A stretch of DNA of 64,000 nucleotides. Origin: Candidatus Woesebacteria bacterium (lineage in GTDB: Bacteria; Patescibacteriota; Microgenomatia; UBA8517). Below are positions 46,317 to 63,296 of this stretch, piece by piece. The stretch covers positions 47,815-111,814 of the forward strand of contig DMZH01000003.1 of the NCBI GenBank assembly GCA_003484955.1, given 5' to 3'. The position numbers and the translations under genes are program-made. The notes beneath the pieces were generated by a model. That model did not search any database. It was not told the origin of the DNA and worked only from the letters and a program-made list of their open reading frames with translations. Within the stretch, counting starts at the first letter, position 1. Every line of letters begins with the position of its first letter.

Positions 46317-46388
46317 GCCGGCGTAACTCAGTGGTAGAGTAGCTGTTTTGTAAACAGCAAGTCAGAGGTTCGAATCCTCTCGTCGGCT
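46317..46388 (+). tRNA. tRNA-Thr (anticodon TGT)
   Basis: Cloverleaf folded by hand: acceptor gccggcg/cgtcggc, anticodon loop tttgtaa, TPsiC GGTTCGAATCC. Confidence 0.8.
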
Positions 46389-46392
46389 CAGC

Positions 46393-46477
46393 GCTGAGGT
46401 GGCGGAGCGGTCAAACGCACGAGACTGTAAATCTCGCGTCCGAAAGGGCTACTCAGGTTCGAATCCTGACCTCAGCA
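46393..46477 (+). tRNA. tRNA-Tyr (anticodon GTA), long variable arm
   Basis: Acceptor gctgagg/cctcagc, anticodon loop ctgtaaa, long extra arm, TPsiC GGTTCGAATCC. Confidence 0.75.
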
Positions 46478-46489
46478 CTTGTTTTATTT

Positions 46490-46549
46490 GCCTGGGTAGC
46501 TCAGTGGTAAGAAAATCTTGCCACTTTCTCTACCCAGGTTCGGTGACTC
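46490..46549 (+). other. Duplicated 5' fragment of tRNA-Thr(GGT) (20 nt identical) that continues into a 9-bp hairpin
   Basis: gcCTGGGTAGctcagtggtaagaaaatcttgccactttctCTACCCAGGttcggtgactc; the first 20 nt equal the start of the downstream tRNA. Confidence 0.7.
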
Positions 46550-46621
46550 GCCTGGGTAGCTCAGTGGTAGAGCACGTACTTGGTAAGTACGGGGTCGTGA
46601 GTTCAATCCTCACCTCAGGCT
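46550..46621 (+). tRNA. tRNA-Thr (anticodon GGT)
   Basis: Acceptor gcctggg/ctcaggc (one G-U pair), anticodon loop ttggtaa, TPsiC GAGTTCAATCC. Confidence 0.8.
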
Positions 46622-46627
46622 CAAATT

Positions 46628-46657
46628 ACTATTCACTATTCACTATTCACATATAAT
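46628..46657. promoter_or_regulatory. Heptamer tandem repeat (ACTATTC)x3 directly followed by a TATAAT-like -10 box, upstream of rpmG
   Basis: Read directly: actattc actattc actattc ac atataat. Confidence 0.6.
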
Positions 46658-46673
46658 TTGCTAGAATATCCCC

Positions 46674-46865
46674 ATGGCTAAAAAAGGTGCTAGAGAAATT
46701 GTGGCTTTGATTTGTTCTGTTTGCAAAAACCAAAATTATATTACAGAAAGAAACAAAGTTAATATGGAGTTAAAAGGAAAAAAAGACTCAAAACTTGAAC
46801 TGAAGAAGTACTGTCACAATTGCAGAAAAGTTCAGATCCACAAGGAATCTTCAAAGCTAAAGTAA
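46674..46865 (+). CDS. rpmG: Ribosomal protein L33
   Basis: CSVCKNQNY...CHNCRK zinc ribbon, 63 aa. Confidence 0.85.
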   Translation: MAKKGAREIVALICSVCKNQNYITERNKVNMELKGKKDSKLELKKYCHNCRKVQIHKESSKLK

Positions 46866-46875
46866 TTTACAACCG

Positions 46876-47343
46876 TCAGATCTTGGTGGGAACAATGCGT
46901 TCAACTGTTTCGCGGATAAAGTCCATGCCCTTTTTGACTTCGCTGCTTATTTCATTTCCAAAGTAATTGTCAAGACTTGAGCTTAGAAAAGCGTATAATC
47001 TTTCGTCAGACAATCTATTTTCTTTAATCGAAAGTGAATCACATACCGTTTTTTTCAGATTTTCAAACATCACGGTAGAGCCGCTCTGATATAAAGAAAC
47101 CAATCTGTCCAGCACTATCACATTCATGTGATCTCTCACGTCTTGGCTTTGTTGTAATATTCCTTGCAGAGAGTCTGCCTTATTATCAACTAAATTTGAG
47201 GCAAATTCAGTTGCGATTCCAAAAACAGAATTTTTTTCCACATCGTTCATAGCCTCTCCCGATAATAGCTTTTTTCCTACCAACTCATAATTAACTTGTG
47301 ACCGTGATTGTAATTCTACATTTGCCATTCGTTTGGGACACAT
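46876..47343 (-). CDS. Hypothetical protein
   Basis: ORF only. Confidence 0.35.
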   Translation of the reverse strand: MCPKRMANVELQSRSQVNYELVGKKLLSGEAMNDVEKNSVFGIATEFASNLVDNKADSLQGILQQSQDVRDHMNVIVLDRLVSLYQSGSTVMFENLKKTVCDSLSIKENRLSDERLYAFLSSSLDNYFGNEISSEVKKGMDFIRETVERIVPTKI

Positions 47344-47483
47344 TGTATACCATTAAAGCTACTTAATCCAAAAATCCTCATATACCTTATAGTTAATTGA
47401 CTTTTGAAGCTATTTGGGATATCATCTCCCCATTCACCAATTGCGGTGAAAATTCGCACCTACACATTGAGGAGGAAAAGGAA

Positions 47484-47828
47484 ATGTCACGGAAAAGTTT
47501 GTCAGAAAAAGTCATTTTGGAAAATCGGGCTGGCGGAAAGGAAAGTAAAGTCGAAATATATATTGAAGCAGCCAAGGGACATCGGTCAATCAACCTTTGG
47601 GACTGGTCGGTTAAGATCACAGTCACCAGAAATGGGCATCCCTTTTCCAGCCAAGGCAACAATAAGCCAAATGAAAGTTTGGTCCACTTGATTAATCGGT
47701 TATTTGATGACATTCGCAGTGATATTTGTAATGCATACAAAAATTCGAATGTTGATTATGACCCGGTCTGTAGGTTTATTTCAGAAGCCCAGAAGAAATT
47801 TATGGCAGAACTATCTGCTGAAAAATAA
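47484..47828 (+). CDS. Hypothetical protein (start set at the Met after a strong GGAGG Shine-Dalgarno)
   Basis: gaggaggaaaaggaaATG; the listed ORF 47397-47828 has an earlier in-frame Met with no ribosome-binding site. Confidence 0.45.
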   Translation: MSRKSLSEKVILENRAGGKESKVEIYIEAAKGHRSINLWDWSVKITVTRNGHPFSSQGNNKPNESLVHLINRLFDDIRSDICNAYKNSNVDYDPVCRFISEAQKKFMAELSAEK

Positions 47829-47847
47829 ATTCTAGGCACCATTTATT

Positions 47848-47895
47848 GGGCGTTTTTATACAAGAAATTTTTGTGTAGAAACGCCCTTTATTTTT
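47848..47895 (+). terminator. Rho-independent terminator candidate
   Basis: gggcgttt...aaacgccc stem followed by a T-run. Confidence 0.5.
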
Positions 47896-47947
47896 CCTTC
47901 CTTTGCCCTCACAGGCTACATAAGGTAAAATTAGTAGTTGTTAACAA

Positions 47948-48018
47948 AGGGGCGTAGTTAAACGGCAGAACAGCGGTCTCCAAAACCGTTAATGGGGGTT
48001 CAATTCCCTCCGCCCCTG
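47948..48018 (+). tRNA. tRNA-Trp (anticodon CCA)
   Basis: Acceptor aggggcg/cgcccct, anticodon loop ctccaaa, TPsiC GGTTCAATTCC. Confidence 0.75.
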
Positions 48019-48102
48019 CTTAGTGAATTTAGCTTCAAAATATTAGATGCCTGGACGGAAGTTTGAACCTATACATAAAATTGATAATCGGGCTTGGATT
48101 TG

Positions 48103-48615
48103 ATGCAATCAGCCCGTGGTAAACAAAAATAACTATATCGTAAAAGCTCTCAGCGACTAGAGGCATCTTTTAGATGCTCTAATTGTCGCGCCATCCTTTC
48201 GGCTGATCCGCTAGGCACAAGACACAGAAACCATTGCCCGCTTTGCCTGTGGTCTAAACATGTAGACCTGAATACACCAGGAGATCGTAGGTCAAGCTGT
48301 TGTGCCAGAATGAGGCCACTAGCTCTAGCCTTTAAGAATTACGAAATCAACCCGTTTACTGGAAGGGGCGGAGGTGAACTGATGCTAATTCATCAGTGTG
48401 CTAACTGTGGCAAATTATCCCCTAACCGAATTGCTGGAGATGATAATGAGTATCAACTTCTTTCTATTTTGAGGGAATCGCTTAATCTAAACAGGGATAT
48501 TTCTAACCAACTTCAAAATTTGGGGTTAGAGCTTATCGTGTCTAAAAACAAAGAGGAGGCTTTGATTTCATTATTCGGAATCAATTACAAAAACTATTTG
48601 TCTCAAGAAGTTTAG
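48103..48615 (+). pseudogene. RNHCP-domain (zinc-ribbon) protein; the conserved N-terminal domain lies upstream of the only downstream ATG and is separated from the upstream ATG by an in-frame TAA
   Basis: In-frame translation gives FRCSNCRAILSADPLGTRHRNHCPLCLWSKHVD...SSCCARM...CANCG. The ATG at 48103 is followed by TAA at 48130; the ORF track only calls 48310-48615. Confidence 0.45.
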
Positions 48616-48730
48616 ATCAATCTGCGGAGAACGATAAACCAGTGATTGTTACTAAACTAATGACCCATTCAATAGGCATAGTAAGTTCGAATGGCTTCCA
48701 TCCAGGGCTGCAAAATTCTTTGAAGTAATG

Positions 48731-49222
48731 TTAGGCTAACAAATCTAGTGCTGCTTTACACGTATCTTCTAATGTACTCAAGATTTGTACGTCTGGACAA
48801 TCTTGAGAAAATCTTCTTTTAATATACTTCGTTCCCGAAAAACCCTCTTCTATTCCTATCACTATTTTTGCCCCATCTCTTTCGTGTTTTACTTTCCACT
48901 CGAACAATTCTCCTCTGGTCGTCTGTGCATAAGCCCTTTCGCAAACATGCGTTTCTTCCTTTGCCAACCAAAAAATGATTACACCGTTTCCTCCAGCTCT
49001 TCTGAGATGATACGTTTCCCAATCAACTTGTTCATTATATTGAACATCTTTATTAAAAGGTCTTTTTGGCGAAGCAATAGTGATTTCAGGATTTATTCCA
49101 TTAATAATTTCTTGAGCTTTAGATTGCCAATCAGGCGCTCCCTGTATTGGACCAGCCAAAAAGATTATTGATTTTCCCCCTTCTACATATTCGGGTGGAA
49201 TATATACACTTCTTTCAGACAT
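48731..49222 (-). CDS. Nucleoside 2-deoxyribosyltransferase-like (NDT/PTD-family) protein
   Basis: IIFLAGPIQGAPDWQ N-terminal motif typical of the NDT-like Rossmann family. Confidence 0.45.
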   Translation of the reverse strand: MSERSVYIPPEYVEGGKSIIFLAGPIQGAPDWQSKAQEIINGINPEITIASPKRPFNKDVQYNEQVDWETYHLRRAGGNGVIIFWLAKEETHVCERAYAQTTRGELFEWKVKHERDGAKIVIGIEEGFSGTKYIKRRFSQDCPDVQILSTLEDTCKAALDLLA

Positions 49223-49365
49223 ACACGGATTTTATATCGTAGGTGATATTTTTTGAAGTGTTGGAATATAACAAGGCTCTTGAAGCTCAAGGTAATAAGT
49301 TCTAACATCCCTTACGACTTTCTGCCACACACTTCTCCATAAATTCCATTTGATATAATGCTCAC

Positions 49366-49821
49366 ATGCCGATAACACCAGAGGAATTCAGATCTTTTCC
49401 GGAGCCAATCAAAACTTGTCTCGAACAATTTAATGTTACATTAGTGCTTGAGGGTAATTTTCCGGAGGATCTTTACAAAAAACCTATCGCTATGTACTTA
49501 CCCAATATCACTGCTGAGCTGGTTGATAATTGTGTTGAAAAAGGGGCAAAAAGAGTTGTTCTAACCACCACTTCAAATTCTATGAAAATCGAGGATGACG
49601 TTATAGAAACGTATCCCGAAAAAACACTTAGGCTTCTAAATAAAATAAAGTCTTCATGTAAACCAATATCCACCAAAGACCTGCAAAGAAAAGGTACACC
49701 GATTCCTGCACATGGAGGTATAGGCATATTCCAAACAATGAATTTTCTAAAACGCGTTGGGGGTGACTTGAACTACTATATTGTTAATCAAAAAATTGTT
49801 GCAGAAGTTACCTGGGAATAA
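49366..49821 (+). CDS. Hypothetical protein
   Basis: ORF only. Confidence 0.35.
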   Translation: MPITPEEFRSFPEPIKTCLEQFNVTLVLEGNFPEDLYKKPIAMYLPNITAELVDNCVEKGAKRVVLTTTSNSMKIEDDVIETYPEKTLRLLNKIKSSCKPISTKDLQRKGTPIPAHGGIGIFQTMNFLKRVGGDLNYYIVNQKIVAEVTWE

Positions 49822-49833
49822 ATAACTGAGGTT

Positions 49834-50472
49834 TTATATCTTAACCATTCCCAACTTTCTGGGCCAGGTTTCATTTTTGGGAGTAATCACAAACATCATC
49901 TTTTTATCAACAATATTCTTTCCTTTGATTTTGTTCGTATCCCACCATCTTTTTTCAAAATCTTTGATTCGAAATCTTCTATCCACTCCCACAAAATCGG
50001 AATAGGAATCGCAAAGTCTCAAATAGTTGGCTTTTTTGTCGACCTTGGTAATAACCGCATAATGCCCATTATCCTCATCCTCATCTTCGTAAAAAACACC
50101 CTGCCATTCTACCCCGACCGGATAGCCATATTTATTTATAGCCAAGGAGATGTCATTGATGGTAGATCGGTGTTTCCTCCAAAAAACAACCTCATTTTTA
50201 CCTAAGATGTTGGTAGCACGAGCCAGGTCGTGAATATTAAGACCCAACCGTCTGATTTTGTTTTTTGCTCTTAAAGACCTAACAATTGCAATTTGTGAGA
50301 CGTTTTTCCCCAAAAACGAAAACAACTCCAAAATTACAGCCGGGCCGCAGTGATAGCTGGAAATTTGCCTGACACGCTTCATTCCCGGAAAGGGCTTGCC
50401 GACAACCTTATCCTCAAGCTTAAGAAGCCTTTGAAGCAATTTCCTGGTTTTAATGTTTTTCTCGAGTTCCAT
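49834..50472 (-). CDS. Stand-alone C39-like (papain-fold) cysteine peptidase
   Basis: RQISSYHCGPAVILELF (Q...CGPA) and later GHYAVITKVD...CDS match the C39 Q/C/H/D arrangement. Confidence 0.5.
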   Translation of the reverse strand: MELEKNIKTRKLLQRLLKLEDKVVGKPFPGMKRVRQISSYHCGPAVILELFSFLGKNVSQIAIVRSLRAKNKIRRLGLNIHDLARATNILGKNEVVFWRKHRSTINDISLAINKYGYPVGVEWQGVFYEDEDEDNGHYAVITKVDKKANYLRLCDSYSDFVGVDRRFRIKDFEKRWWDTNKIKGKNIVDKKMMFVITPKNETWPRKLGMVKI

Positions 50473-50518
50473 AATCGGTCTATTTTACGACTCAAACCGG
50501 GTTTTGTCCAGGTGTAAG

Positions 50519-51595
50519 CTAGGAGATATTTTTGGCGTATTTTGAAAGCAGACTGGCCATGGTGTCTGAAAATTCCACTCCATGCATTGCCATTACTTCG
50601 GTCATGGGAAGCCCCATGTCTGGCCCGAAAGCCGTATTTGGGTTGCTGTCTGTAAAATACGGCATACCGGTTTCTTCATCTACTCTGACATCGAATTTTG
50701 CATAATCTTTATGTTGCAGTGCTCCGAAAGCTCTCACTGCAAGCTTGGTAATCTCATAACGCAAATCGTCTTCAACGAAAACATATTTGTATGCCCTTAA
50801 ATCATCGTATGATTCAAAGCTTGTAAAATAATGCTTCCCGTCGGGCTTGGTTCTAAATACCTTTTGTCCCATAAAAACGTGCCTTTTTCCTCCATCATCA
50901 AAAACGACAACGGTTATCTCAGGACCATCTATAAATTTTTCCACAATTACAGGAACATGGTACGTAGAAATTAAGTTGTTTGCCCTGAGCTTAGCAGCCC
51001 GATAAGTTTCCTTGACGGCGTGATTGTTTATTCCCACACTTCCCCCACCCTCATTTAGTTTTACTATTAAAGGCAAGCCCAAATCTTCATCAATGCTCGC
51101 CCCCACCCTTCTAATAAACTGAAATGGTGGCGTATGAACATCGTAGGCCATGAGAAGTCTTTTGGTCAGATTTCTGTTATTGCCGATTATCAGACCTTCC
51201 ATCCCTGCTCCCGTATAGGGAATATTTGCCAGTTCAAGAGCTGCAGGCACTGACGGCTGGAGCTTATCTCTTCCTTTTAGGGTATCAACAAGATTTACAA
51301 CCAGATCGGGTTTATCCACCAATAGGTTTGTGTAAAAATACTGATCCCCCGGTAAAGTCCGTACAGGAATCCCCAATTTTCTGATTTCTTCGGAAACCTC
51401 AATTGCCCGTTCTTCCACTTCAACCTCTGCTTCGTAAGCTGACTGTGTAGCAAAATGCTCTCTTTGAACGCTTGAGTAGGCTACTACCACAAGTCTGAAC
51501 TTTTTTAGTGTTTCTTTATCAATATTAAGTTTGATCTTCTCTTTAGAGGAGGCTTTCTTTACTTGCGCTTCGTCTTCGTTTTTGGCAGTGGGCAT
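50519..51595 (-). CDS. ATP-grasp enzyme of the D-Ala-D-Ala ligase family (divergent N-domain)
   Basis: PLIVKLNEGGGSVGI and FDVRVDEETGMPYFTDSNPNTAFGP resemble the Ddl central and C-terminal domains; the N-terminus has REHFATQS in place of GGxSxEHxVS. Confidence 0.6.
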   Translation of the reverse strand: MPTAKNEDEAQVKKASSKEKIKLNIDKETLKKFRLVVVAYSSVQREHFATQSAYEAEVEVEERAIEVSEEIRKLGIPVRTLPGDQYFYTNLLVDKPDLVVNLVDTLKGRDKLQPSVPAALELANIPYTGAGMEGLIIGNNRNLTKRLLMAYDVHTPPFQFIRRVGASIDEDLGLPLIVKLNEGGGSVGINNHAVKETYRAAKLRANNLISTYHVPVIVEKFIDGPEITVVVFDDGGKRHVFMGQKVFRTKPDGKHYFTSFESYDDLRAYKYVFVEDDLRYEITKLAVRAFGALQHKDYAKFDVRVDEETGMPYFTDSNPNTAFGPDMGLPMTEVMAMHGVEFSDTMASLLSKYAKNIS

Positions 51596-51637
51596 AAATA
51601 TATACTAGCAAATAGTAAAAAGAAAAAATAGGAGCTG

Positions 51638-52288
51638 GTGTATAATCTTGTTGTGGAAATCGGGGTATTAATCATATTTACTGGTGCCTCCGGCGCCGGA
51701 AAGGATTCTGTTATGGATGAATTTTTGAAAAATCCCATTGTCCAAAAATTTAACCTTAAAAAAGTGGTTACTTGTACAGACCGTCCTCCGCGACCCGGCG
51801 AGACGGACGGAATTCAATATCATTTTGTAAGTAGCACCCGACTTCAAAAAATGGCTGAAGATAATGAACTTGTTGAACCAATCACAAAATATGGAACATC
51901 AAATAAAGCAACTCCTAAGGTTGAAATTGAGAGACTTCTGGCCGGTGAAAATTTAGTTTGGAGAATTGATCCTTCCCGCGCGGCTGAAGTTGCTTCGGGG
52001 AAATTTTTCCAAAGAATTTTCCCTGAGAAGGCACATTTGCTTCAAAGTCATACAATTGTGTTTTTTGTAACTGCACCAAAAGAAGTCATTGCCGAAAGAA
52101 GAAAAAGAAGAGATCTTGATAAATATGACCCGGAAGAATATAAGGTCCGTGATGATCAAGACCAAATTTATTTAAACATACTTCAAGAAAAAGCCATTCT
52201 TATAGAAAATATTAACAGCAGACTTAATGAGGCAGTAGACACAGCCGTAAAATCCGCCGTGGGCATATATGACAAAATCAAAAACTAA
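51638..52288 (+). CDS. Guanylate kinase-like P-loop kinase (Gmk/PhnN family)
   Basis: TGASGAGKDS P-loop and TDRPPRPGETDGIQYHFVS. Confidence 0.6.
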   Translation: MYNLVVEIGVLIIFTGASGAGKDSVMDEFLKNPIVQKFNLKKVVTCTDRPPRPGETDGIQYHFVSSTRLQKMAEDNELVEPITKYGTSNKATPKVEIERLLAGENLVWRIDPSRAAEVASGKFFQRIFPEKAHLLQSHTIVFFVTAPKEVIAERRKRRDLDKYDPEEYKVRDDQDQIYLNILQEKAILIENINSRLNEAVDTAVKSAVGIYDKIKN

Positions 52289-52700
52289 AGTAATTCTAAC
52301 CGGCGGGTGCTTTGACATTCTCCACTACGGACATGTTTACTTTTTGAAAAAGGCAAAATCTTTGGGAGATTACTTGGTTGTTGCCATAGAATCGGATGAA
52401 AGAATAAGAGAGTTAAAGGGTAAAGGGCGGCCTTTTCATTCACAAAAACAAAGAAAAGAAACACTTGAGTCTTTGAAATTTGTCGATAAGGTAATTATTT
52501 TAAAAGATAAAATGACTCATCAAGATTACATTGACCTGGTTAATAAGGTTAACCCTTGTATAATCGCGGTAACCGAAGGTGACCCTATTCTTGACAAGAA
52601 AAAGGAGCAAGCAGAAATGGTTGGAGCCAAAATTGTCCAAATACCCCACATCAGAACCCACTCAACTACCCAAATATCCAAATTTTTAAATTTAGATTAA
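52269..52700 (+). CDS. Cytidylyltransferase-like nucleotidyltransferase (TagD / HldE domain II / RibL-like)
   Basis: HxGH motif GGCFDILHYGH, 143 aa; overlaps the upstream kinase by 20 nt. Confidence 0.65.
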   Translation: MTKSKTKVILTGGCFDILHYGHVYFLKKAKSLGDYLVVAIESDERIRELKGKGRPFHSQKQRKETLESLKFVDKVIILKDKMTHQDYIDLVNKVNPCIIAVTEGDPILDKKKEQAEMVGAKIVQIPHIRTHSTTQISKFLNLD

Positions 52701-53939
52701 TTATTCCCAAGTTTTGATTTCCGTCTGGGGTAATTTCAATTTTCTTGGCGTAACAAAAAGTAATATTATCGAGAACGTCAACACGATGACCCCTAACCAA
52801 CTAAATGTTAATCTTTCCCCAACCTTAGACGAGATTAGTCCGGCAAAAACTGGCCAAATTATATAGGAAAGGTTCATCACCGACCCGGTCAGTCCTATCA
52901 TGTCTTTCTTCTCACTTCCCATTCTGGTAAGAATATCCGTGTAAACCCCCTGCAGAAGCGGATAACAAACTGCCAACGCACTTGATGCTAAGCAAATTAT
53001 TGCAAGCTGCCAGGAAACGCTCGAGGAAAAAGCGATGGCTATAAAAAATATTCCGGACAAACCCAAAAATTTTTCAGCTAACTTTTTCTTACCGTTCGAA
53101 ATATTCCACCTGGAAAGTGGAATTCCTAAACAAATAGAAGGAAGAAGGTATAAAGGCAAAAACCATATACCCCAAGGATTAACCAAAGTTAATTTCTCCG
53201 TCCAAACCGCGCCAACTGTATAAAATGTTGCATCGATAAAACCCAACACTAGACCGATAGCCAGAGCCGGCCAAACTGTTCTGGAAAGGGTCAGCCAGTG
53301 CCTAAGTTCCGCCCACGGATTTGCATGAGAAAAATCAACAGCAGTTGGAACATCATGTCTATTTTTGTTCAGTGTTAAAAGCACTAAAGCGACAACAAGA
53401 AAAATTATTATCGTCCCCTGGGTAATCAAGATTCCGTTGGATAAAAGCTCTGCGGCAATAAACGGTCCCAGGAAATATGCCAGATTGACAAAAATTCCGG
53501 TAAATCCCCAGGCAGCGGCTCTCATTTGACTGGGAACAACCGTTCCCATAAATTGAAAGTTGGCAAAATTTACAAGTTCATAATAAATTCCCCAGAGAGT
53601 CATTGTGGCAATAAAAATAGCCAGTAAAGGTTTAAACGTAGACGCGCTTAAGAAAAACGACGTTAAGGCAGAAACCAATATTGCCCAAAAAATCAGGCGT
53701 CTTGTACGAACAGTCTTAAAAATTCTGGGGAAAATCAAATCGGCAGAAAACCCCACAATTGATTGAAAACTGATAATAGCACCCATAATAACCGGGTTTT
53801 GCAATGAATTTTGAATTTGATTCGGAGCCCAAAAAGCAATAATAGAGTCAGACAAACGTAGAAAAAATAAAATCAAAGAGAAAGTAAGAAGCCTATTCCA
53901 AACAAGATTCTCTTTAAACATCAAAATATACCTTTTCAC
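52701..53939 (-). CDS. MFS transporter
   Basis: About 12 predicted TMs. Confidence 0.6.
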   Translation of the reverse strand: MKRYILMFKENLVWNRLLTFSLILFFLRLSDSIIAFWAPNQIQNSLQNPVIMGAIISFQSIVGFSADLIFPRIFKTVRTRRLIFWAILVSALTSFFLSASTFKPLLAIFIATMTLWGIYYELVNFANFQFMGTVVPSQMRAAAWGFTGIFVNLAYFLGPFIAAELLSNGILITQGTIIIFLVVALVLLTLNKNRHDVPTAVDFSHANPWAELRHWLTLSRTVWPALAIGLVLGFIDATFYTVGAVWTEKLTLVNPWGIWFLPLYLLPSICLGIPLSRWNISNGKKKLAEKFLGLSGIFFIAIAFSSSVSWQLAIICLASSALAVCYPLLQGVYTDILTRMGSEKKDMIGLTGSVMNLSYIIWPVFAGLISSKVGERLTFSWLGVIVLTFSIILLFVTPRKLKLPQTEIKTWE

Positions 53940-53965
53940 AAACTAATAATGAGGCAAGTGAGAAG

Positions 53966-54973
53966 TTATTTCAACCTTGCAATTTGCGCATCAACCATCA
54001 GGTGAACTAAATCCTTGAATGTAGTTTTTGGAGTCCAACCTAAAACTTTCTTTGCTTTTGAAGGATTGGCAACGAGTGGTCCTGTTTCTGTAGGGCGGAT
54101 AAATCTGTCATCAACTACCACATGATCTTTCCAGTTAAGCCCCACATAGCCATATGATTCCTCACAAAGTTCCTGAATTGTGTGGGTTTCCCCGGTTCCG
54201 ATTACGAAATCGTCCGGTTTGTCCTGCTGTAGTATAAGCCACATGGCTTCAACATAATCCCCGGCAAATCCCCAATCGCGCTTTGCCTGAAGATTTCCAA
54301 GAGCTACTTTTCCGTTTTTGACAATTGGCTCGCCTTCTTCGTTGAGATGTTCGGAACTTTTAACTCCAAGTTTCGCACAGGCTGCAGCATATGTAACTTT
54401 TTGAGTTACAAAACCAAGATGTCTTCGGGGCGACTCGTGATTAAACAAAATTCCGTTTGAAGCAAACATATTATAGCTTTCCCTGTATATTTTGGTCATG
54501 GCATGAGCATAAAGCTTTGAAGCCGCATAGGGATTGGCCGGATTAAATGGAGTTTCTTCGTTTTGAGGAATTTCTCTTACCCACCCGAACATTTCGCTGC
54601 TGCTGGCTTGATAGAATCTTGATTTTGGAACAACATCCAGAGTCGCATCCAGAACTCTGTGAGCTCCAATTGCGGTAATCTCTGCCGTATGAATCGGCTG
54701 CCTAAAGCTTTCCGCGGGGTGACTTTGAGACGCTAGATTATAAACTTCATCGGGTTTAGATTTTTGCAACGCCTCACGAATCGAAATCGGGTCCAGTAGA
54801 TCCGCCTGAATCAAATTTAACTCTTCTTGAATGTGGGAAATGTTGGCATAAGCCATATTACTGGTTTTTCTCACAATCCCTGTAACAATATAATCTTTCT
54901 TAAGAAGAAGTTCCGCAAGGTAACTTCCGTCCTGGCCGGTAATTCCTGTAATTAATGCTACTTTTTTAGACAT
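53966..54973 (-). CDS. gmd: GDP-mannose 4,6-dehydratase
   Basis: ALITGITGQDGSYLAELLL N-terminus, SDR extended family. Confidence 0.85.
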   Translation of the reverse strand: MSKKVALITGITGQDGSYLAELLLKKDYIVTGIVRKTSNMAYANISHIQEELNLIQADLLDPISIREALQKSKPDEVYNLASQSHPAESFRQPIHTAEITAIGAHRVLDATLDVVPKSRFYQASSSEMFGWVREIPQNEETPFNPANPYAASKLYAHAMTKIYRESYNMFASNGILFNHESPRRHLGFVTQKVTYAAACAKLGVKSSEHLNEEGEPIVKNGKVALGNLQAKRDWGFAGDYVEAMWLILQQDKPDDFVIGTGETHTIQELCEESYGYVGLNWKDHVVVDDRFIRPTETGPLVANPSKAKKVLGWTPKTTFKDLVHLMVDAQIARLK

Positions 54974-55074
54974 TACAAGAAATCATAACATATGTTAAAA
55001 TTACAAGCTAGTATCACCAGGAAGGAGGCGATTTAAATTTATGTTTACCGCATAAGCGGAGATATATTCAAAAT

Positions 55075-55269
55075 ATGTTTATTATTAAAAAGAAAAAAGG
55101 AGAAAGCGACGACAAGCTTATTGCCCGCTTTCGTAAAAAAACGATAGTCGAAGGTGTCATGCAGGAGTATCGCGACCGCGAACACTACAAAAAACCGGCT
55201 GAAAGAAGAAAAGAGGCCAAGTATCGCATCGCCCACTCTATCGAGCTTGAGAAAAAGAGGAGTTATTAA
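55075..55269 (+). CDS. rpsU: Ribosomal protein S21
   Basis: Basic 64-aa protein with S21-like REHYKKPAERRKEAK. Confidence 0.7.
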   Translation: MFIIKKKKGESDDKLIARFRKKTIVEGVMQEYRDREHYKKPAERRKEAKYRIAHSIELEKKRSY

Positions 55270-55894
55270 AATAGCTTTCCACAAATTTCTTTCTGTGCAA
55301 TCTGGTCAGTCCGTATTTTTGGATAACATTTCTGTGAATAAGCGTGCCGTAGCCTTTATTTTTATCCCACCCGTATTTTTTGTATTTACGGTTATTAGAT
55401 AATTTGGCCATAAGCTTATCACGGTAAACTTTGGCTATGATTGAGGCCGCAGCAATTGAAATTGATTTAGTATCCCCTTTTATAATCGGTTTTTGATTCT
55501 TTCGGCGCAACCCTCTTACATAAGGAACGTAAAAAGCATCAATTAAAATATAATTTATCTCGATCCCACAGTTTTTTATCGCTTTCCTAAAAGCTATCTC
55601 ACTGGCTTTTTTGATTCCAAATTTATTAATTTGAGCAACACTCGACTTTCCAATTCCAAAAACCAGTGCGTTTTTTCTGATCCATTTATCAGCAATTTCT
55701 CTTTGTCTAGGAGTTAATTTCTTCGAGTCATTAATCTTAGGTGGGTTTTCCCATTTATCATTAAGACCAAAAACAACAGCCCCTGCCACAACCGGTCCCG
55801 CAAAACAACCTCTTCCAACCTCATCCATGCCGGCAATAATTCTGTATCCTTTTTTAGAGACTGTCTTTTCGAAAGAAAAATCCGGAAGATTCAT
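55238..55894 (-). CDS. rnhB: Ribonuclease HII
   Basis: GMDEVGRGCFAGPVVAGAVV catalytic motif. Confidence 0.9.
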   Translation of the reverse strand: MNLPDFSFEKTVSKKGYRIIAGMDEVGRGCFAGPVVAGAVVFGLNDKWENPPKINDSKKLTPRQREIADKWIRKNALVFGIGKSSVAQINKFGIKKASEIAFRKAIKNCGIEINYILIDAFYVPYVRGLRRKNQKPIIKGDTKSISIAAASIIAKVYRDKLMAKLSNNRKYKKYGWDKNKGYGTLIHRNVIQKYGLTRLHRKKFVESYFNNSSFSQAR

Positions 55895-56286
55895 TTTTTA
55901 ATCCGTTCCCTATACTTTCTGGGATACCTGTCATACAAAAAAGTGGCAAACCTGTCTACTAATTCATTCCGTTCTCCTGTAGACATTTCACCAAGACTGA
56001 TTTTGACCCTTATTGCCGAATTGCTGTTTACTACCCTTCCGGCCAATGTTACGTGCCCTACCCCGGCCAGAAAATACTGAAAACAGGCTTTCTTTAAGCT
56101 CATCGTCGCCTTCTCTTCAATTTCCTCCCAATAATCCATATCTGCAACACCAAATACACTTTCCGGGTACTCACCCTTTAATCCAACCAAAACAGATTCC
56201 CACGAACCCTCGGCAATTTTAAACTTAGGCTTTTTTTCATCCTCAAATCGGATGGGTCTTTTCTCACTTTCAGCTCCCATGGCCAA
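55891..56286 (-). CDS. Hypothetical protein
   Basis: ORF only, 4-nt overlap with rnhB. Confidence 0.4.
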   Translation of the reverse strand: MAMGAESEKRPIRFEDEKKPKFKIAEGSWESVLVGLKGEYPESVFGVADMDYWEEIEEKATMSLKKACFQYFLAGVGHVTLAGRVVNSNSAIRVKISLGEMSTGERNELVDRFATFLYDRYPRKYRERIKK

Positions 56287-56349
56287 TTATACACCGAGAG
56301 GCAATCTATCTTGTGCGCTTCAGAATAATTTGATACAATTCACATCTAG

Positions 56350-56535
56350 ATGAAATCGGTCGTTACTTTCTTTTCAGAAGTAAGAAGTGAACTTTCCAAG
56401 GTTACCTGGCCAAAGAAAAATGAAGTCGTCAGACTTACGAGTATCGTTCTTTTGGTTTCGGTGATTGTTGGATTTTACGTAGGAGGACTCGATTATTTGT
56501 TCACAACAGTTTTGACAAGAATATTAACTAAATAA
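56350..56535 (+). CDS. secE: Preprotein translocase subunit SecE
   Basis: 61 aa, single TM, VTWPKKNEVV motif; followed by nusG. Confidence 0.8.
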   Translation: MKSVVTFFSEVRSELSKVTWPKKNEVVRLTSIVLLVSVIVGFYVGGLDYLFTTVLTRILTK

Positions 56536-56544
56536 ACAATAACT

Positions 56545-57174
56545 ATGAACGAAGACACAAAACAGCAAGAAACAGTTGCAGGAGTAGCAGAAAGAGGTAT
56601 CGGACATAAAAAGATCCAGGGCCACATGATCCTTGCCCAGACAACCGATCCTAAAGCAAAGTGGTATGTAGTTCATACCTCTTCGGGCCATGAGGTACGT
56701 GTCATGGACACCCTCCGCCAGAGAGTTGAAACCATGAACCTGGAAGGTAGGGTTTTTGAAATGTTGGTTCCGACACAAGACAGAGTTATTATCAGAAGTG
56801 GTAAAAAAGCAACCATCAAGGAAAAGATTTTTCCGGGATACCTTCTTGTAAAGATGATTTTGGACGATCCGACTTGGCTTGCCGTCAGGACAACTGCCGG
56901 AATTACGGGGTTTGTAGGAGCGGGAAATAAACCCACCCCTCTTTCCGATGCTGAAGTTGCAAACATCCAGAAATTTATCAGCTCTCCCGCTCCCAGATTT
57001 AAGACCAAATTTAGTGTTGGTGAGGCTATTAAAATCGTCGACGGGCCTTTTTCGGATTTTCTTGGAACAATCCATGAAATTGATGAGGAAAAAGGTAAAG
57101 TCAAAGTTTTGGTTTCAATTTTCGGCCGCGAAACACCGGTCGAGCTTGATTTTCTACAAATTCAGAAAGTTTAA
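56545..57174 (+). CDS. nusG: Transcription antiterminator NusG
   Basis: NGN domain (WYVVHTSSGHE), KOW (GEAIKIVDGPF). Confidence 0.9.
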   Translation: MNEDTKQQETVAGVAERGIGHKKIQGHMILAQTTDPKAKWYVVHTSSGHEVRVMDTLRQRVETMNLEGRVFEMLVPTQDRVIIRSGKKATIKEKIFPGYLLVKMILDDPTWLAVRTTAGITGFVGAGNKPTPLSDAEVANIQKFISSPAPRFKTKFSVGEAIKIVDGPFSDFLGTIHEIDEEKGKVKVLVSIFGRETPVELDFLQIQKV

Positions 57175-58259: not shown

Positions 58260-59042
58260 ATGGGAAAAATGAAAACAGCGTTTGTCGGAGAAGACTCCAA
58301 TAAAAAGAAAGAAAAAGAACAAGAAAAGGTTCACTTGGCCGGACTTAAAGGTGGTCAAAAAGTTAAAGTGGTTGAGGCAGCACCCGGCGAAGAGTCCCCG
58401 ATTATTGAAGAAGGAGCTCAGAACACCGAAGTCACCAAAAAATCAAAAAAGATCGAACACATAAGGGGTAAAAAATATAAAGAATCTAAAGCTAAATTTG
58501 ATCATGAAAAATTGTACAAAGTTTCTGAAGCAGTCAAACTTGTAAAAGAAACCTCTTATTCAAAATTTGACGGAACAATGGAACTACACCTTGTTGTCAA
58601 AAAGACGGGAACGTCCATCCAGATTACTCTTCCCCATCAGGCGGGTCGGGTTAAGAAAGTCGAAATCGCCAGTGAAGATACCATTACCAAACTTAAAGAA
58701 GGAAAAATTGATTTTGATATCTTAGTGGCAACACCCGATATGATGCCAAAACTTGTCCCGTTCGCGAAACTTTTAGGACCTAAAGGCCTTATGCCAAATC
58801 CCAAAAATGGAACTTTAATAAACGATCCCAAAAAGGTTAAGTCGTTTTCAACCGCAACGGTTACGTTAAAAACAGAAAGAGAAGCCCCTCTTGTACACAC
58901 TGTAGTCGGCAAAACAATTCAGGCGGATTCAGAGTTGGTTGAAAATCTTGAAGCCATTCTCAAGGCTTTTGGAGGTATAAAACAAATAGAAAAAGCATAT
59001 ATCAAAGCCACAATGGGCCCATCAGTGAAAGTTAAGGTATAA
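58260..59042 (+). CDS. rplA: Ribosomal protein L1 with about 50-aa Lys/Glu-rich N-terminal extension
   Basis: The L1 core starts about KESKAKFDHEKLYKVSEAVKLVKE. Confidence 0.85.
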   Translation: MGKMKTAFVGEDSNKKKEKEQEKVHLAGLKGGQKVKVVEAAPGEESPIIEEGAQNTEVTKKSKKIEHIRGKKYKESKAKFDHEKLYKVSEAVKLVKETSYSKFDGTMELHLVVKKTGTSIQITLPHQAGRVKKVEIASEDTITKLKEGKIDFDILVATPDMMPKLVPFAKLLGPKGLMPNPKNGTLINDPKKVKSFSTATVTLKTEREAPLVHTVVGKTIQADSELVENLEAILKAFGGIKQIEKAYIKATMGPSVKVKV

Positions 59043-59377: not shown

Positions 59378-59408
59378 GATTTTCGCGCCTCGTGCGCGAT
59401 TTTTTTTG
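59378..59408 (+). promoter_or_regulatory. GC hairpin plus T-run (attenuator-like) just upstream of and overlapping the rplJ start region
   Basis: gcgattttcgcgcctcgtgcgcgatttttttt. Confidence 0.35.
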
Positions 59409-59961
59409 GACAAAATATAAAAATATGAAAAAATTGGAAAAGATAGTATTTGTAGACAATTTAAAAGTTGAGCTAAAAGACGCCAAGTCGGTAATCCTTG
59501 TCAATTATGCAGGACTTGCCGTTAAACCCCAACAAGAACTTAAAAGAAGACTGGCCGAAGTTGGTGGAAAAATGGTTGTTGTTAAAAACACGCTCCTCTC
59601 CCGTGCCGGCGATGCGGCAGGATTTGACAGTAAAAATCTAACCGGCGAAATTCTTTCCGGTCAAACCGCTCTTATTATTGCAACCGACGATCCTGTTGCC
59701 CCAATTCAAGTTTTAGGAAAATTTGCCAAAGAATTTGTCAGTGCAGCCGGCGAATCAGTTCCGAAATTTAAAATCGGTATTGTTGAAGGATTATTCCAGG
59801 ATTCTCAATCTCTCTCTCAAATCTCGCTTCTTCCAGGACGCGATGCACTTCTTGGACAATTCCTTGGAACGTTAATGGGTACCCAATACGGGTTAGTTGG
59901 AACATTGAATGCAAATTTGCAGAAACTGGTTTATGTGTTAGACACAGCCAGTAAAAAGTAA
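59392..59961 (+). CDS. rplJ: Ribosomal protein L10
   Basis: L10 family similarity; position before rplL. Confidence 0.85.
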   Translation: MRDFFWTKYKNMKKLEKIVFVDNLKVELKDAKSVILVNYAGLAVKPQQELKRRLAEVGGKMVVVKNTLLSRAGDAAGFDSKNLTGEILSGQTALIIATDDPVAPIQVLGKFAKEFVSAAGESVPKFKIGIVEGLFQDSQSLSQISLLPGRDALLGQFLGTLMGTQYGLVGTLNANLQKLVYVLDTASKK

Positions 59962-59982
59962 GGATCGGAGGTGAATTATTAA

Positions 59983-60387
59983 ATGGCAGAAGAATCTAAA
60001 AAAGTATCAGAAAAAGTTGAAAAGATTGTGGAGGAAGTTTCTAAACTTTCTGTTTTGGAACTTTCCGAACTAGTCACAGCTTTGCAAGACAAGCTTGGTG
60101 TTTCCGCCGCGCTTCCGGTTGCAGCAGCAGCCCCAGCAGCCGCAGGAGAAGCTCCAGCAGAAGATGCCGGCAGTGCTAATAAAACAGTAGTCATGACCGA
60201 TTCCGGTGCAAATAAAATTGCAGTTATTAAGGCTTTGAGGGAAATAAATCCCAACCTAACCTTAATGGATGCCAAAGGAATGACAGACACTGTTCCAGCT
60301 GAAGTTTTGAAAGATGCTAAAGCAGAAGATGCTAAGTCAGCTTCCGACAAACTTACCGCAGCAGGAGCAAAAGTGGAACTTAAATAA
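59983..60387 (+). CDS. rplL: Ribosomal protein L7/L12
   Basis: Ala-rich hinge AAAAPAAAGEAPAE, C-terminal domain KIAVIKALREI. Confidence 0.9.
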   Translation: MAEESKKVSEKVEKIVEEVSKLSVLELSELVTALQDKLGVSAALPVAAAAPAAAGEAPAEDAGSANKTVVMTDSGANKIAVIKALREINPNLTLMDAKGMTDTVPAEVLKDAKAEDAKSASDKLTAAGAKVELK

Positions 60388-60547: not shown

Positions 60548-61444
60548 TTAATTAGCCAAATAATCGACTATTTTAGATGCAACATTAATTCCTGTTGATT
60601 CCTCAAATCCTTCAAATTGACAGGCTCTATTTACTTCAAGCACAACCCACTTACCTTCTTCGTTTTTCATAAGATCTATACCACAATAATCCAATTTGAA
60701 AAGTTTTGAAGTTTCTAAAGCAATACTGTTCGCCTCTAAATCTTCTCCGATTTTATATGATTCGACCTTACCTCCTTGCGAATAATTACTCAAAAAGTTC
60801 CCGGGTAGGGCAATTCGTTTCATCGCCCCAACTATTTTTCCATTCAAAACAATAACACGCAAATCTTCAGCTTTGGGTAAAAGTCTTTGGAAAAGAAGGG
60901 TTTTAATTTTAAAGTTCGAATTAAATGTTTTAAAAAGTTTAAGAAGGTCGGAGTCTTCTGATATTTTGAAAACCCCAATTCCACTACTTCCGATAATGTC
61001 CTTAGCGATATACGGATACGCGTCTACACTCCATTTTTTGAGTTCTTCAATTGATGTAAAACTAAAACTCTCGACAACCGGAATGCCTGCCAGGGCTAAA
61101 TTAATATATTGAGTGGTTTTATCTAATGAAGGCCATTTACTAAATGATTTTTCATTTAATAATTTTGATCCTTTTAATTTAGACCACACAATAATCGCAG
61201 TCCGGATTGGATTATATACACTATCCTCCCCCAACCCCCGCAAAAAAATCCCATGAGGGACAGGCATTTCTTCACCTTTTAATTTGAGTTCGAATTCCCC
61301 TGTTGTATAAACAATGTTTATGTCGTTGTATTTAATCACCCGAAGATTGATGTTCTTATTTTTTGCTTCCTCGATCAACCTTTTTGGGGCATAAGCTTTC
61401 GGGCCGTGGGTAAATAGAATAATATCCAAATCAAATTTTTTCAT
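60548..61444 (-). CDS. RimK-like ATP-grasp ligase
   Basis: VVLEVNRACQFEGFEESTG C-terminal RimK-type motif; ATP-grasp fold length. Confidence 0.65.
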   Translation of the reverse strand: MKKFDLDIILFTHGPKAYAPKRLIEEAKNKNINLRVIKYNDINIVYTTGEFELKLKGEEMPVPHGIFLRGLGEDSVYNPIRTAIIVWSKLKGSKLLNEKSFSKWPSLDKTTQYINLALAGIPVVESFSFTSIEELKKWSVDAYPYIAKDIIGSSGIGVFKISEDSDLLKLFKTFNSNFKIKTLLFQRLLPKAEDLRVIVLNGKIVGAMKRIALPGNFLSNYSQGGKVESYKIGEDLEANSIALETSKLFKLDYCGIDLMKNEEGKWVVLEVNRACQFEGFEESTGINVASKIVDYLAN

Positions 61445-61458
61445 AACTCGCCATTATA

Positions 61459-63283: not shown

Positions 63284-63296
63284 TTTATGTAAACAC

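What the first reader, a model, noticed from the sequence alone, without database searches (positions are those of the whole stretch)
49834..52700. C39-like peptidase next to a Ddl-family ATP-grasp, a Gmk-like kinase and a cytidylyltransferase-like gene
A 212-aa stand-alone protein has the C39 bacteriocin-processing peptidase active-site arrangement (Q...CGPA...HY.V...D) with no ABC-transporter domain. The adjacent ATP-grasp has Ddl-like central and C-terminal motifs, but its N-terminal GGxSxEH is replaced by YSSVQREH. It may be a divergent Ddl for peptidoglycan or a ligase with a different substrate. Divergently transcribed are an overlapping Gmk/PhnN-like kinase and a small HxGH nucleotidyltransferase, which could form a two-step phosphorylate-then-nucleotidylate activation pair.
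Basis: partly seen in the sequence, partly recalled or inferred. Interest (0 to 1): 0.55.

Follow-up and report, generated by a model that had tools for sequence, protein, structure and literature searches.

The report
Conserved ATP-grasp ligase plus cysteine peptidase pair
A candidate-phyla-radiation bacterium (Microgenomates) carries a tightly linked, strongly conserved gene pair, an ATP-dependent amide ligase that resembles but is not the cell-wall D-Ala-D-Ala ligase and a cytoplasmic papain-type cysteine peptidase, whose substrate is unknown; the neighbouring kinase and nucleotidyltransferase genes are ordinary and unrelated to it.

The parts
50519..51595 (-). ATP-grasp 'A': a Ddl-superfamily carboxylate-amine ligase that is not Ddl. 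It is the first gene of the conserved pair.
   Evidence: Pfam Dala_Dala_lig_C 63.6 bits with no Dala_Dala_lig_N hit. NCBIfam Ddl 95.7 bits against a cutoff of 243. Best PDB hits are Ddl at E 1e-15 or weaker. The residue table against E. coli DdlB shows ATP/Mg residues kept and D-Ala-site residues changed. The family is 62-95% identical across 83 Microgenomates loci.
49834..50472 (-). Stand-alone, predicted cytoplasmic C39-like Cys-His-Asp peptidase. It is the second gene of the pair, starting 46 nt after the ATP-grasp stop.
51638..52288 (+). Divergent guanylate-kinase-like P-loop kinase. It is a neighbour, not part of the conserved module.
   Evidence: Guanylate_kin 50.7 bits. TIGR03263 70.9 bits against a cutoff of 160. 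The best PDB hits are all guanylate kinases. It is near the ATP-grasp in only 7 of 83 loci.
52269..52700 (+). Small HxGH cytidylyltransferase-family nucleotidyltransferase. It is a neighbour, not part of the conserved module.
   Evidence: CTP_transf_like 64.3 bits. TIGR00125 71.1 bits, above its cutoff of 27.7. rfaE_dom_II 110 bits and TagD 73 bits are both below their cutoffs. Best PDB hits are ethanolamine-phosphate and glycerol-3-phosphate cytidylyltransferases. It is near the ATP-grasp in 17 of 83 loci.

Best explanation
The core of the finding is a two-gene operon, ATP-grasp then peptidase, that is specific to and conserved across Microgenomates (CPR). The first enzyme is a Ddl-superfamily ATP-grasp. 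By the family's established chemistry it activates a carboxylate as an acyl-phosphate and joins it to an amine. It keeps the ATP/Mg2+ machinery and the Glu that binds a free alpha-amino group in Ddl, but it has lost the residues that hold the second D-alanine, so its acceptor is not D-Ala. The second enzyme is a cytoplasmic C39-like Cys-His-Asp peptidase. Through a thioester acyl-enzyme it hydrolyses, or transfers to another amine, an amide bond in the same pathway: either the ligase's product or its precursor. In some lineages the module gains a RimJ/RimL-type GNAT domain fused to the peptidase and a second Ddl-like ATP-grasp. Shown here: the folds, the conserved catalytic residues, the non-Ddl status, the gene linkage and the fusion. 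Inferred: that both enzymes act on one substrate, the direction of the pathway and the identity of the substrate. The Gmk-like kinase (probably the housekeeping guanylate kinase) and the cytidylyltransferase (probably envelope sugar or polyol activation, beside an MFS transporter, Gmd and Wzy-type genes) are unrelated neighbours.
For: Linkage. A C39-like ORF occurs in 67 of 83 loci, and 62 of the 69 such ORFs lie directly downstream of the ATP-grasp on the same strand; 26 overlap its stop codon by 17-20 nt. This holds while the other neighbours change between Woese-, Collier-, Shapiro- and Cerribacteria. At least 25 contig lengths are shared between the two independent homologue lists. P0242 (524 aa) fuses the ATP-grasp to the peptidase, with C39_2 at 33.2 bits and C39 at 31.3 bits, both above cutoff.

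Not Ddl. NCBIfam Ddl scores 95.7 bits against a cutoff of 243. There is no PF01820 N-domain hit, whereas the canonical Microgenomates Ddl proteins have it. Relative to E. coli DdlB the changes are H63K, E68L, S150G, R255K, G276A, S281P and L282M, while K144, E180, E187, D257, N272 and E15 are kept. A canonical Ddl (334 and 345 bits) lies 1.3-2.3 kb away in L061 and L058.

Precedents for ATP-grasp plus papain-fold pairs. Trypanothione synthetase-amidase (PMC2427367). CtaD/CtaG and BtrH (PMC7183216). CtaG is among the fold hits.
Against: No substrate is identified, and nothing shows that the two enzymes touch the same molecule. The loci are all from one class with deep synteny (nusG lies within 8 kb in 24 of 83 loci), so part of the adjacency could be inherited gene order. 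Sixteen of 83 loci have no detectable C39-like gene. A few of these end within about 1 kb of the ATP-grasp. Six carry an unrelated 416-444-aa gene in that position. Four Gottesmanbacteria-type loci have RsmB, AAT-family and polyprenyl-synthase genes there instead. The nearest outgroup ATP-grasps (about 35% identity; Dojkabacteria, Aenigmarchaeota) are not next to a C39-like gene. The window's own peptidase scores just under both Pfam cutoffs. The fusion protein is a single sequence on a 2.2-kb contig.
Confidence: 0.6

Rival explanations
1. Protein-modification system. The ATP-grasp adds one or more amino acids to a protein terminus or side chain, as RimK does on ribosomal protein S6 or tubulin-tyrosine ligases do. 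The C39-like peptidase trims or removes the addition, and the RimJ/RimL-type GNAT caps an amino group. The target may be ribosomal or otherwise part of the translation machinery.
For: The ATP-grasp is about as conserved as NusG (62-95% against 51-100%). It is far more conserved than the peptidase (30-87%) or the canonical Ddl (about 50-88% among its top 120 hits). That fits a macromolecular partner. The module sits inside the L33-tRNA-Trp-secE-nusG-L11-L1-L10-L12 string. An Acetyltransf_3 (RimJ/L-type) GNAT is fused to the peptidase in seven loci. C39 and related papain-fold enzymes cut peptides or proteins. The peptidase is basic, with pI 10.
Against: By sequence the ligase belongs with Ddl and the L-amino-acid ligases, which use small substrates, not with RimK. 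It keeps the Glu that binds a free alpha-amino group. No candidate target was identified. Conservation and location are circumstantial.
Confidence: 0.2
2. Peptidoglycan-peptide metabolism. The ATP-grasp makes an alternative dipeptide or adds a residue to a stem peptide or bridge, or re-ligates salvaged muropeptide fragments. The cysteine peptidase is a cytoplasmic murein-peptide amidase.
Confidence: 0.12
3. The ATP-grasp is simply this organism's divergent housekeeping D-Ala-D-Ala ligase.
For: Ddl models and Ddl structures are its best hits. JGI annotates homologues as D-alanine-D-alanine ligase. No other Ddl-like gene occurs in the 64-kb window.
Against: It scores 95.7 bits against a cutoff of 243. 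The N-domain is not recognised. Seven Ddl substrate or catalytic-loop positions are changed in every family member. It coexists with a canonical Ddl in L058 and L061.
Confidence: 0.04
4. RiPP or bacteriocin maturation cassette. The ATP-grasp modifies a ribosomal precursor peptide (graspetide- or pheganomycin-like) and the C39 peptidase removes a double-glycine leader.
For: The closest solved folds include the double-glycine leader peptidases ComA, LahT150 and PCAT1. ATP-grasp enzymes and C39 domains co-occur in graspetide clusters (PMC8939145, listed).
Against: No conserved small ORF lies next to the pair in 83 loci, although the clustering only covered ORFs of 60 aa or more. There is no ABC exporter among the recurrent neighbours. 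The ligase is Ddl-type. The pair sits at a fixed housekeeping position across a whole class and is very conserved, unlike typical secondary-metabolite clusters.
Confidence: 0.04

Closest known systems
Glutathionylspermidine / trypanothione synthetase-amidase (GspSA, TryS)
   Same: It combines an ATP-grasp C:N ligase with a papain-like Cys amidase that acts on the same amide bond (PMC2427367). Here the two activities are adjacent genes and, in P0242, one polypeptide.
   Different: The domain families differ: a CHAP amidase and a GspS-type ATP-grasp there, a C39-like peptidase and a Ddl-type ATP-grasp here. The domain order is reversed. The substrates here are unknown.
CtaD/CtaG (closthioamide) and BtrJ/BtrH (butirosin)
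   Different: Those pathways use carrier-protein thioesters. The Pfam-annotated genes of the loci looked up include no carrier-protein or phosphopantetheinyl-transferase domain, but I did not search the 83 loci for one. The module is a conserved core gene pair, not a sporadic biosynthetic cluster.
Peptidase family C39 (ComA, LahT, PCAT1 double-glycine leader peptidase domains) and C39_2
   Same: It has the same fold and the same Q-x5-C...H...D arrangement. ComA superposes at rmsd 1.8 A over 132 residues with 23% identity. The Q and C align in HMMER.
   Different: There is no ABC transporter and no evident leader-peptide substrate. It has an extra N-terminal helix (residues 1-24) and a roughly 55-residue C-terminal extension carrying invariant R165, R175, W176, W177, D178 and N180. 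It is predicted to be cytoplasmic.
D-alanine--D-alanine ligase (Ddl) and VanA-type ligases
   Same: It has the ATP-grasp fold, the Ddl C-terminal domain, and conserved K144, E180, E187, D257, N272 and E15 equivalents.
   Different: It falls far below the family cutoffs. The D-Ala-site residues are replaced. It coexists with a true Ddl, and it has no alr/mur gene context.
Phytochelatin-synthase-like Alr0975 (with glutathione synthetase as the ATP-grasp partner)
   Different: Sequence similarity is marginal. There is no evidence for glutathione metabolism here.

Membership tests
Peptidase C39 / C39-like (Pfam PF03412, PF13529; clan CA) | Papain-like fold with the nucleophile Cys at the N-terminus of a helix and His on a beta-strand | tested here: met
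Peptidase C39 / C39-like (Pfam PF03412, PF13529; clan CA) | Conserved Gln (oxyanion hole), Cys, His and Asp | tested here: met
   Q36, C42, H137 and D155 are invariant in 106 homologues. Q and C align with ComA's Q and C in HMMER. The G-H-Y motif aligns with G-H-Y of PDB 22oc. The fold tools did not print a residue-level structural superposition of His and Asp.
Peptidase C39 / C39-like (Pfam PF03412, PF13529; clan CA) | Score above the curated Pfam gathering cutoff | tested here: inconclusive
   The window protein scores 20.8 against 22 and 18.8 against 24. However, 105 of 106 homologues match C39 (best E 2.2e-10), and relatives P0242 and L029:9083-10327 exceed both cutoffs.
Bacteriocin-processing C39 peptidase in the strict sense | N-terminal domain of, or genetic link to, an ABC exporter, together with a double-glycine leader peptide substrate | tested here: not met
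   It is a stand-alone 212-aa protein. There is no exporter or conserved small ORF among the recurrent neighbours in 83 loci, for ORFs of 60 aa or more. No ABC-transporter domain appears among the window's neighbours.
D-alanine--D-alanine ligase (EC 6.3.2.4) | Score above the NCBIfam/TIGRFAM Ddl cutoffs, and presence of the Ddl N-terminal domain (PF01820) | tested here: not met
   95.7 against 243 and 92.1 against 245.65. Only PF07478 is found. The canonical Microgenomates Ddl proteins carry PF01820 and score 334-345 bits.
D-alanine--D-alanine ligase (EC 6.3.2.4) | D-Ala-binding and catalytic-loop residues (E. coli DdlB H63, S150, K215, R255, G276, S281, L282) | tested here: not met
   In the MAFFT alignment with DdlB these are K, G, gap, K, A, P and M in the window protein, and the same or similar in all family members examined. 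Its length and all named residues checked out.
D-alanine--D-alanine ligase (EC 6.3.2.4) | It is the genome's Ddl orthologue (no other Ddl; alr/murF context) | tested here: inconclusive
   Not met in relatives: a canonical Ddl lies 1.3-2.3 kb away in L061 and L058, and a canonical Ddl of another Microgenomates genome sits with alr and a Mur ligase. For the window's own genome only 64 kb could be searched, and no other Ddl was found there.
ATP-grasp superfamily (carboxylate-amine ligases) | ATP- and Mg2+-binding residues (DdlB K144, E180, E187, D257, E270, N272 equivalents) | tested here: met
   These positions are K, E, E, D, D and N in all family members examined.
Guanylate kinase | P-loop plus GMP-binding motif, and a score above the equivalog cutoff | tested here: inconclusive
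   GASGAGKD and TDRPPRPGETDGIQYHF are present. All PDB hits are guanylate kinases. TIGR03263 scores 70.9 bits against a cutoff of 160.45.
Cytidylyltransferase-like nucleotidyltransferases (PF01467 / TIGR00125) | HxGH motif and a score above the domain cutoff | tested here: met
   H19-Y-G-H22. PF01467 scores 64.3 against a cutoff of 21, and TIGR00125 scores 71.1 against 27.7. Subfamily assignment (RfaE domain II 110 against 181.5; TagD 73 against 165) is not met.
Glutathionylspermidine / trypanothione synthetase-amidase | CHAP-type amidase domain and GspS-type synthetase domain | tested here: not met
   The Pfam and NCBIfam hits are C39 and Ddl types, and no CHAP or GSP_synth hit appears. The resemblance is one of functional logic only.

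The most novel reading that the evidence does not exclude
The pair is a lineage-specific (Microgenomates) system that reversibly tags or extends a macromolecule. A Ddl-derived ATP-grasp, as conserved as NusG, would ligate an amino acid or short peptide onto a protein (possibly of the translation apparatus, given its genomic position) or onto an envelope polymer. A dedicated C39-like peptidase would remove or transfer it. In some lineages a fused RimJ/L-type GNAT would cap it. This would be a new kind of post-translational 'writer/eraser' pair built from a cell-wall ligase scaffold.
Probability: 0.2. Interest if true: 0.75.

Novelty: new variant of a known kind. Interest (0 to 1): 0.5.

Why it matters
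CPR bacteria have tiny genomes, so a gene pair kept by a whole class, with the ligase as conserved as NusG, is probably important to their biology. Public records annotate it as 'D-alanine-D-alanine ligase', 'ATP-grasp domain-containing protein' or 'hypothetical protein'. Separating this family from the true Ddl corrects cell-wall pathway reconstructions for Microgenomates. It also defines a tractable two-enzyme target for biochemistry: a soluble ligase plus a soluble peptidase, with a natural fusion. If the substrate proves to be a protein or an envelope polymer, it would be a new modification system. If it is a small peptide or conjugate, it would add a new ATP-grasp/papain-fold pathway alongside trypanothione and closthioamide chemistry.

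Tried and rejected
1. Single-sequence AF2 of the peptidase gave pLDDT 34 and was discarded. It was repeated with a 106-sequence alignment.
2. I looked for a second Ddl-like gene in the window by tblastn with ATP-grasp A, ATP-grasp B and a canonical Microgenomates Ddl. None was found. B's only weak hit fell in a RimK-type gene.
3. I tried to show canonical Ddl on the same large contigs as ATP-grasp A by matching contig lengths. No lengths matched among the top 120 hits, so this stays unresolved for Woesebacteria-type genomes.
4. The six 416-444-aa proteins that replace the peptidase in some loci gave no Pfam, NCBIfam or PDB sequence hit. hhalign against the AAT/C45 family gave only 13.7% probability (E 0.002), although the Cys and H-x-E-D motifs aligned. 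This is a lead, not a result.
5. That family is unrelated to the 451-aa gene downstream of the Aenigmarchaeota outgroup ATP-grasp.
6. The promoter and terminator scan of 49200-52900 found fewer sites than shuffled sequence and was uninformative.
7. The Rfam and tRNA scans found only four tRNAs.
8. Literature searches for ATP-grasp with Microgenomates, and for the 'P210 CD lyase' of PDB 22oc, found nothing. Iyer et al. 2009 on amidoligases (PMC3268129) is not held.
9. The afdb50 fold library was unavailable.
10. I rejected the four-gene cassette idea on the neighbourhood counts.
Full report
OBSERVATION. They are a 212-aa protein at 49834-50472(-), a 358-aa protein at 50519-51595(-), a 216-aa protein at 51638-52288(+) and a 143-aa protein at 52269-52700(+). 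The last two overlap by 20 nt and are transcribed divergently from the first two across a 42-nt gap. The quoted motifs are present: Q36, HCGPA at 41-45, GHY at 136-138 and D155 in the peptidase; AYSSVQREH at 39-47 in the ATP-grasp; HYGH at 19-22 in the transferase. The window is about 40% G+C. Its closest relatives are Woesebacteria-type Microgenomates MAGs, for example L004 with 95% ATP-grasp identity.

THE ATP-GRASP. It carries the Ddl C-terminal domain (63.6 bits) but no recognisable Ddl N-domain. It reaches only 95.7 bits against the 243-bit cutoff of the NCBIfam Ddl model. Its best solved relatives are Ddl enzymes at E 1e-15 or weaker. I aligned it with E. coli DdlB. The family keeps the ATP/Mg2+ residues (K144, E180, E187, D257, E270 as Asp, N272) and the E15 equivalent. 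It replaces H63 with K or R, E68 with L, S150 with G, R255 with K, G276 with A, S281 with P and L282 with M or F, and it has a gap at K215. The same table separated two other Ddl-like classes found in the related loci. The first is an 'ATP-grasp B' of about 340 aa (181-190 bits on the Ddl model; E68R, Y216W, L282Y). The second is a fully canonical Ddl in two Shapirobacteria loci, L061:5808-6671(-) and L058:1071-1919(-). That canonical Ddl scores 334 and 345 bits, above the cutoff, and lies 1.3-2.3 kb from ATP-grasp A. A third Microgenomates canonical Ddl sits with alanine racemase and a Mur ligase between the L1 and L10 genes. In the window the corresponding ORFs at 58260-59042 and 59392-59961, which I took to be L1 and L10 from gene order without scanning them, are adjacent with no such insertion. 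ATP-grasp A is therefore a paralogous family, not the Ddl orthologue, in the genomes where this can be seen. The window's own genome could not be examined beyond 64 kb, and no other Ddl-like gene occurs in that stretch.

FAMILY SIZE AND CONSERVATION. An exhaustive HMMER search of 1.84 billion representative proteins found only 50 with E below 1e-30. Identity drops sharply from 54% or more inside the family to about 35% in the nearest outgroups. Two of those outgroups are from Dojkabacteria and Aenigmarchaeota. Within Microgenomates the ligase is 62-95% identical. That is similar to NusG (51-100%) and much higher than the peptidase (30-87%) or the canonical Ddl (about 50-88% among its top 120 hits).

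NEIGHBOURHOOD. A pattern scan of 185,579 species genomes with the ATP-grasp alignment returned 80 loci. By their record titles these are Woese-, Collier-, Shapiro-, Gottesman- and Cerribacteria and unclassified Microgenomates/Patescibacteria, plus a number filed under evidently wrong names such as 'uncultured Gammaproteobacteria' or 'Pseudomonadales'. Together with three loci fetched earlier this makes 83.
- A C39-like ORF (local HMM, E below 1e-5) is present in 67 loci. Of the 69 such ORFs, 62 lie directly downstream of the ATP-grasp on the same strand, and 26 overlap the ATP-grasp stop by 17-20 nt.
- The cytidylyltransferase is nearby in 17 loci, the Gmk-like kinase in 7, Gmd in 22-23 and the MFS transporter in 16-19. 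All of these are Woesebacteria-type loci.
- The kinase and transferase even change order between loci: kinase then transferase in the window, transferase then kinase in L001.

VARIATIONS OF THE MODULE.
- One metagenomic protein, P0242 (524 aa), is a direct fusion of ATP-grasp A to the peptidase. Both C39 models score above cutoff.
- In seven Collierbacteria-type loci the downstream gene is a fusion of about 415 aa: a RimJ/RimL-type GNAT (Acetyltransf_3, 42 bits) followed by the C39-like domain. Three further loci have an extra gene between the two; in L045 and L057 it clusters with the GNAT-containing ORFs. Many loci carry a GNAT-like gene just upstream of the ATP-grasp.
- In about 11 loci ATP-grasp B follows the peptidase.
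- Six loci lack the peptidase. In five of them a 416-444-aa protein with an invariant Cys sits directly downstream of the ATP-grasp; in L073, whose contig ends just after the ATP-grasp, a sixth member lies upstream on the opposite strand. It shows only weak profile similarity to the AAT/C45 Ntn-hydrolase family (hhalign E 0.002, probability 13.7%). I treat this as a lead.
- The outgroup ATP-grasps are not next to C39-like genes.

INTERPRETATION. What is shown: (1) a catalytically intact C39-like peptidase; (2) an ATP-grasp with intact nucleotide and metal sites but a remodelled acceptor site; (3) tight, recurrent and once-fused linkage of the two; and (4) independence from the kinase and transferase. 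From the established chemistry of the two superfamilies I infer a two-step amide module. ATP-grasp enzymes form an acyl-phosphate that is attacked by an amine. Clan CA peptidases form a thioester acyl-enzyme that is resolved by water or an amine. In the module one enzyme would make an amide bond and the other would hydrolyse or transfer it. Known precedents with the same logic are trypanothione/glutathionylspermidine synthetase-amidase (an ATP-grasp fused to a papain-like amidase; PMC2427367) and CtaD/CtaG and BtrH (an ATP-grasp plus a C39/BtrH-like transacylase; PMC7183216). A 2023 survey of papain-like enzymes notes that the related DUF3335 family is often fused to GNAT domains (PMC10318531). 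The retained E15 equivalent suggests the acyl donor has a free alpha-amino group, as an amino acid does. The lost D-Ala2 carboxylate site suggests the acceptor is not a simple alpha-amino acid bound as in Ddl. Both points are inference. The substrate remains unknown. Alternatives are a protein-modification system, peptidoglycan-peptide metabolism, a plain divergent Ddl, and RiPP maturation. They are weighed in the rival list. The first is the most interesting and is favoured by the unusual conservation, the RimJ/L-type GNAT and the position inside the secE-nusG ribosomal-protein string. None of these is a direct test.

THE KINASE AND THE TRANSFERASE. The kinase hits only guanylate kinases in the PDB and has the P-loop and the GMP-binding motif, but it scores below the equivalog cutoffs. 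It is most simply a divergent housekeeping Gmk. The transferase is a bona fide cytidylyltransferase-family domain whose best relatives act on ethanolamine-phosphate, glycerol-3-phosphate or heptose-1-phosphate. It lies beside an MFS transporter and GDP-mannose 4,6-dehydratase, and Wzy-type genes occur in the syntenic loci. That fits envelope glycopolymer precursor activation. Nothing links either gene to the ATP-grasp/peptidase pair beyond local gene order.

NOVELTY AND VERDICT. I found no paper on this pair. Public records call the ligase 'D-alanine-D-alanine ligase', 'ATP-grasp domain-containing protein' or 'hypothetical protein'. They call the peptidase 'hypothetical protein', 'C39 domain-containing protein', 'predicted double-glycine peptidase' or 'ABC-type bacteriocin/lantibiotic exporter with double-glycine peptidase domain'. 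The combination of an ATP-grasp with a papain-fold enzyme is a known kind. This Ddl-derived, C39-type, Microgenomates-wide version is a new variant. Interest is moderate (0.5): the module is real, conserved and mis-annotated with an open function, but the present evidence does not reach a substrate.

Noticed in passing
window 60548-64000 (- strand): Directly after the two ORFs I took to be rplJ/rplL (59392-60387; inferred from gene order, not scanned) lie four tandem RimK-type ATP-grasp genes at 60548-61444, 61459-62400, 62387-63283 and 63297 onward. The last runs off the window end and fuses an ATPgrasp_ST C-terminus to a PF05618 'Zn_protease' retropepsin-like domain with a D-T-G motif. This is a second, different ATP-grasp plus peptidase association in the same window.
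   Followed up: partly
window 46317-57174: The ATP-grasp/peptidase pair and its neighbours occupy an 8.3-kb block inserted between tRNA-Trp (47948-48019) and secE (56350-56535). The surrounding string is tRNA-Thr/Tyr/Thr - L33 - tRNA-Trp - secE - nusG - L11 - L1 - L10 - L12; NusG was confirmed by homology, while L33, S21, SecE, L11, L1, L10 and L12 were recognised by eye or from gene order. In another Microgenomates genome a different insertion (alr, a Mur ligase and ddl) sits between L1 and L10.
   Followed up: partly
L003:12123-13148, L005:9813-10847 and about 9 other loci: A second Ddl-like ATP-grasp 'B' of about 340 aa follows the peptidase, giving the order A - C39 - B. It scores 181-190 bits on the Ddl model (cutoff 243). 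It keeps S150, K215, R255, G276 and S281 but has E68R, Y216W and L282Y. It is absent from the window. Related tandem or fused double ATP-grasp proteins of about 650-730 aa exist.
   Followed up: partly
L029:9083-10327 and six similar loci; L045:9106-9852; L029:7207-7887: In Collierbacteria-type loci the peptidase is fused to an N-terminal Acetyltransf_3 (RimJ/RimL-type) GNAT domain. Other loci have a separate GNAT-like gene between the ATP-grasp and the peptidase, or just upstream of the ATP-grasp.
   Followed up: partly
L012:4999-6282, L062:5586-6836, L076:9028-10362, L080:5052-6371, L082:9021-10331, L073:664-1902: Six loci lack the C39-like gene. In five a 416-444-aa protein of no known family takes its place directly downstream of the ATP-grasp; in L073, whose contig ends just after the ATP-grasp, the sixth member lies upstream on the opposite strand. 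It has an invariant G-C-Q and H-x-E-E-D. hhalign aligns these with the nucleophile Cys and the H-N-E-D motif of an AAT/C45 Ntn-hydrolase family, but only at 13.7% probability.
   Followed up: partly
P0242 (JGI metagenome contig of 2207 bp): A single 524-aa protein fuses ATP-grasp A to the C39-like peptidase through a short linker, and it lacks the peptidase's N-terminal helix. Only one sequence is known, so an assembly or gene-calling artefact is not excluded.
   Followed up: partly
L086:5431-8888 (Aenigmarchaeota), L084:7395-9086 (Dojkabacteria): The nearest outgroup ATP-grasps (about 35% identity) have different partners. In the archaeon these are a 451-aa protein with a weak MurL-like hit (25.8 bits) followed by a ThiF/E1-like gene. 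In Dojkabacteria it is a divergently transcribed PF20603 'Bact_hydrolase' gene.
   Followed up: no
window 48310-49821: Between tRNA-Trp and the peptidase lie three small genes: one with an RNHCP domain (48310-48615), a nucleoside 2-deoxyribosyltransferase-like gene (48731-49222; 33 bits against a cutoff of 30), and a 151-aa ORF of no family (49366-49821), convergent with the peptidase and found in only one other locus, L013.
   Followed up: no
window 46876-47900: A 155-aa ORF (46876-47343, -) has no family hit. Next to it are two long ORFs overlapping on opposite strands (47393-47740 - and 47397-47828 +); the + strand ORF has no family hit and the - strand one was not scanned. It is unclear which of them, if either, is a gene.
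   Followed up: no
L005 compared with the window: Divergence is uneven between two close relatives. NusG is 100% identical, Gmd 97% and the M50 protease 96%, but ATP-grasp A is only 87%, the peptidase 87%, the kinase 89% and the nucleotidyltransferase 73%. This may reflect recombination in this block.
   Followed up: no
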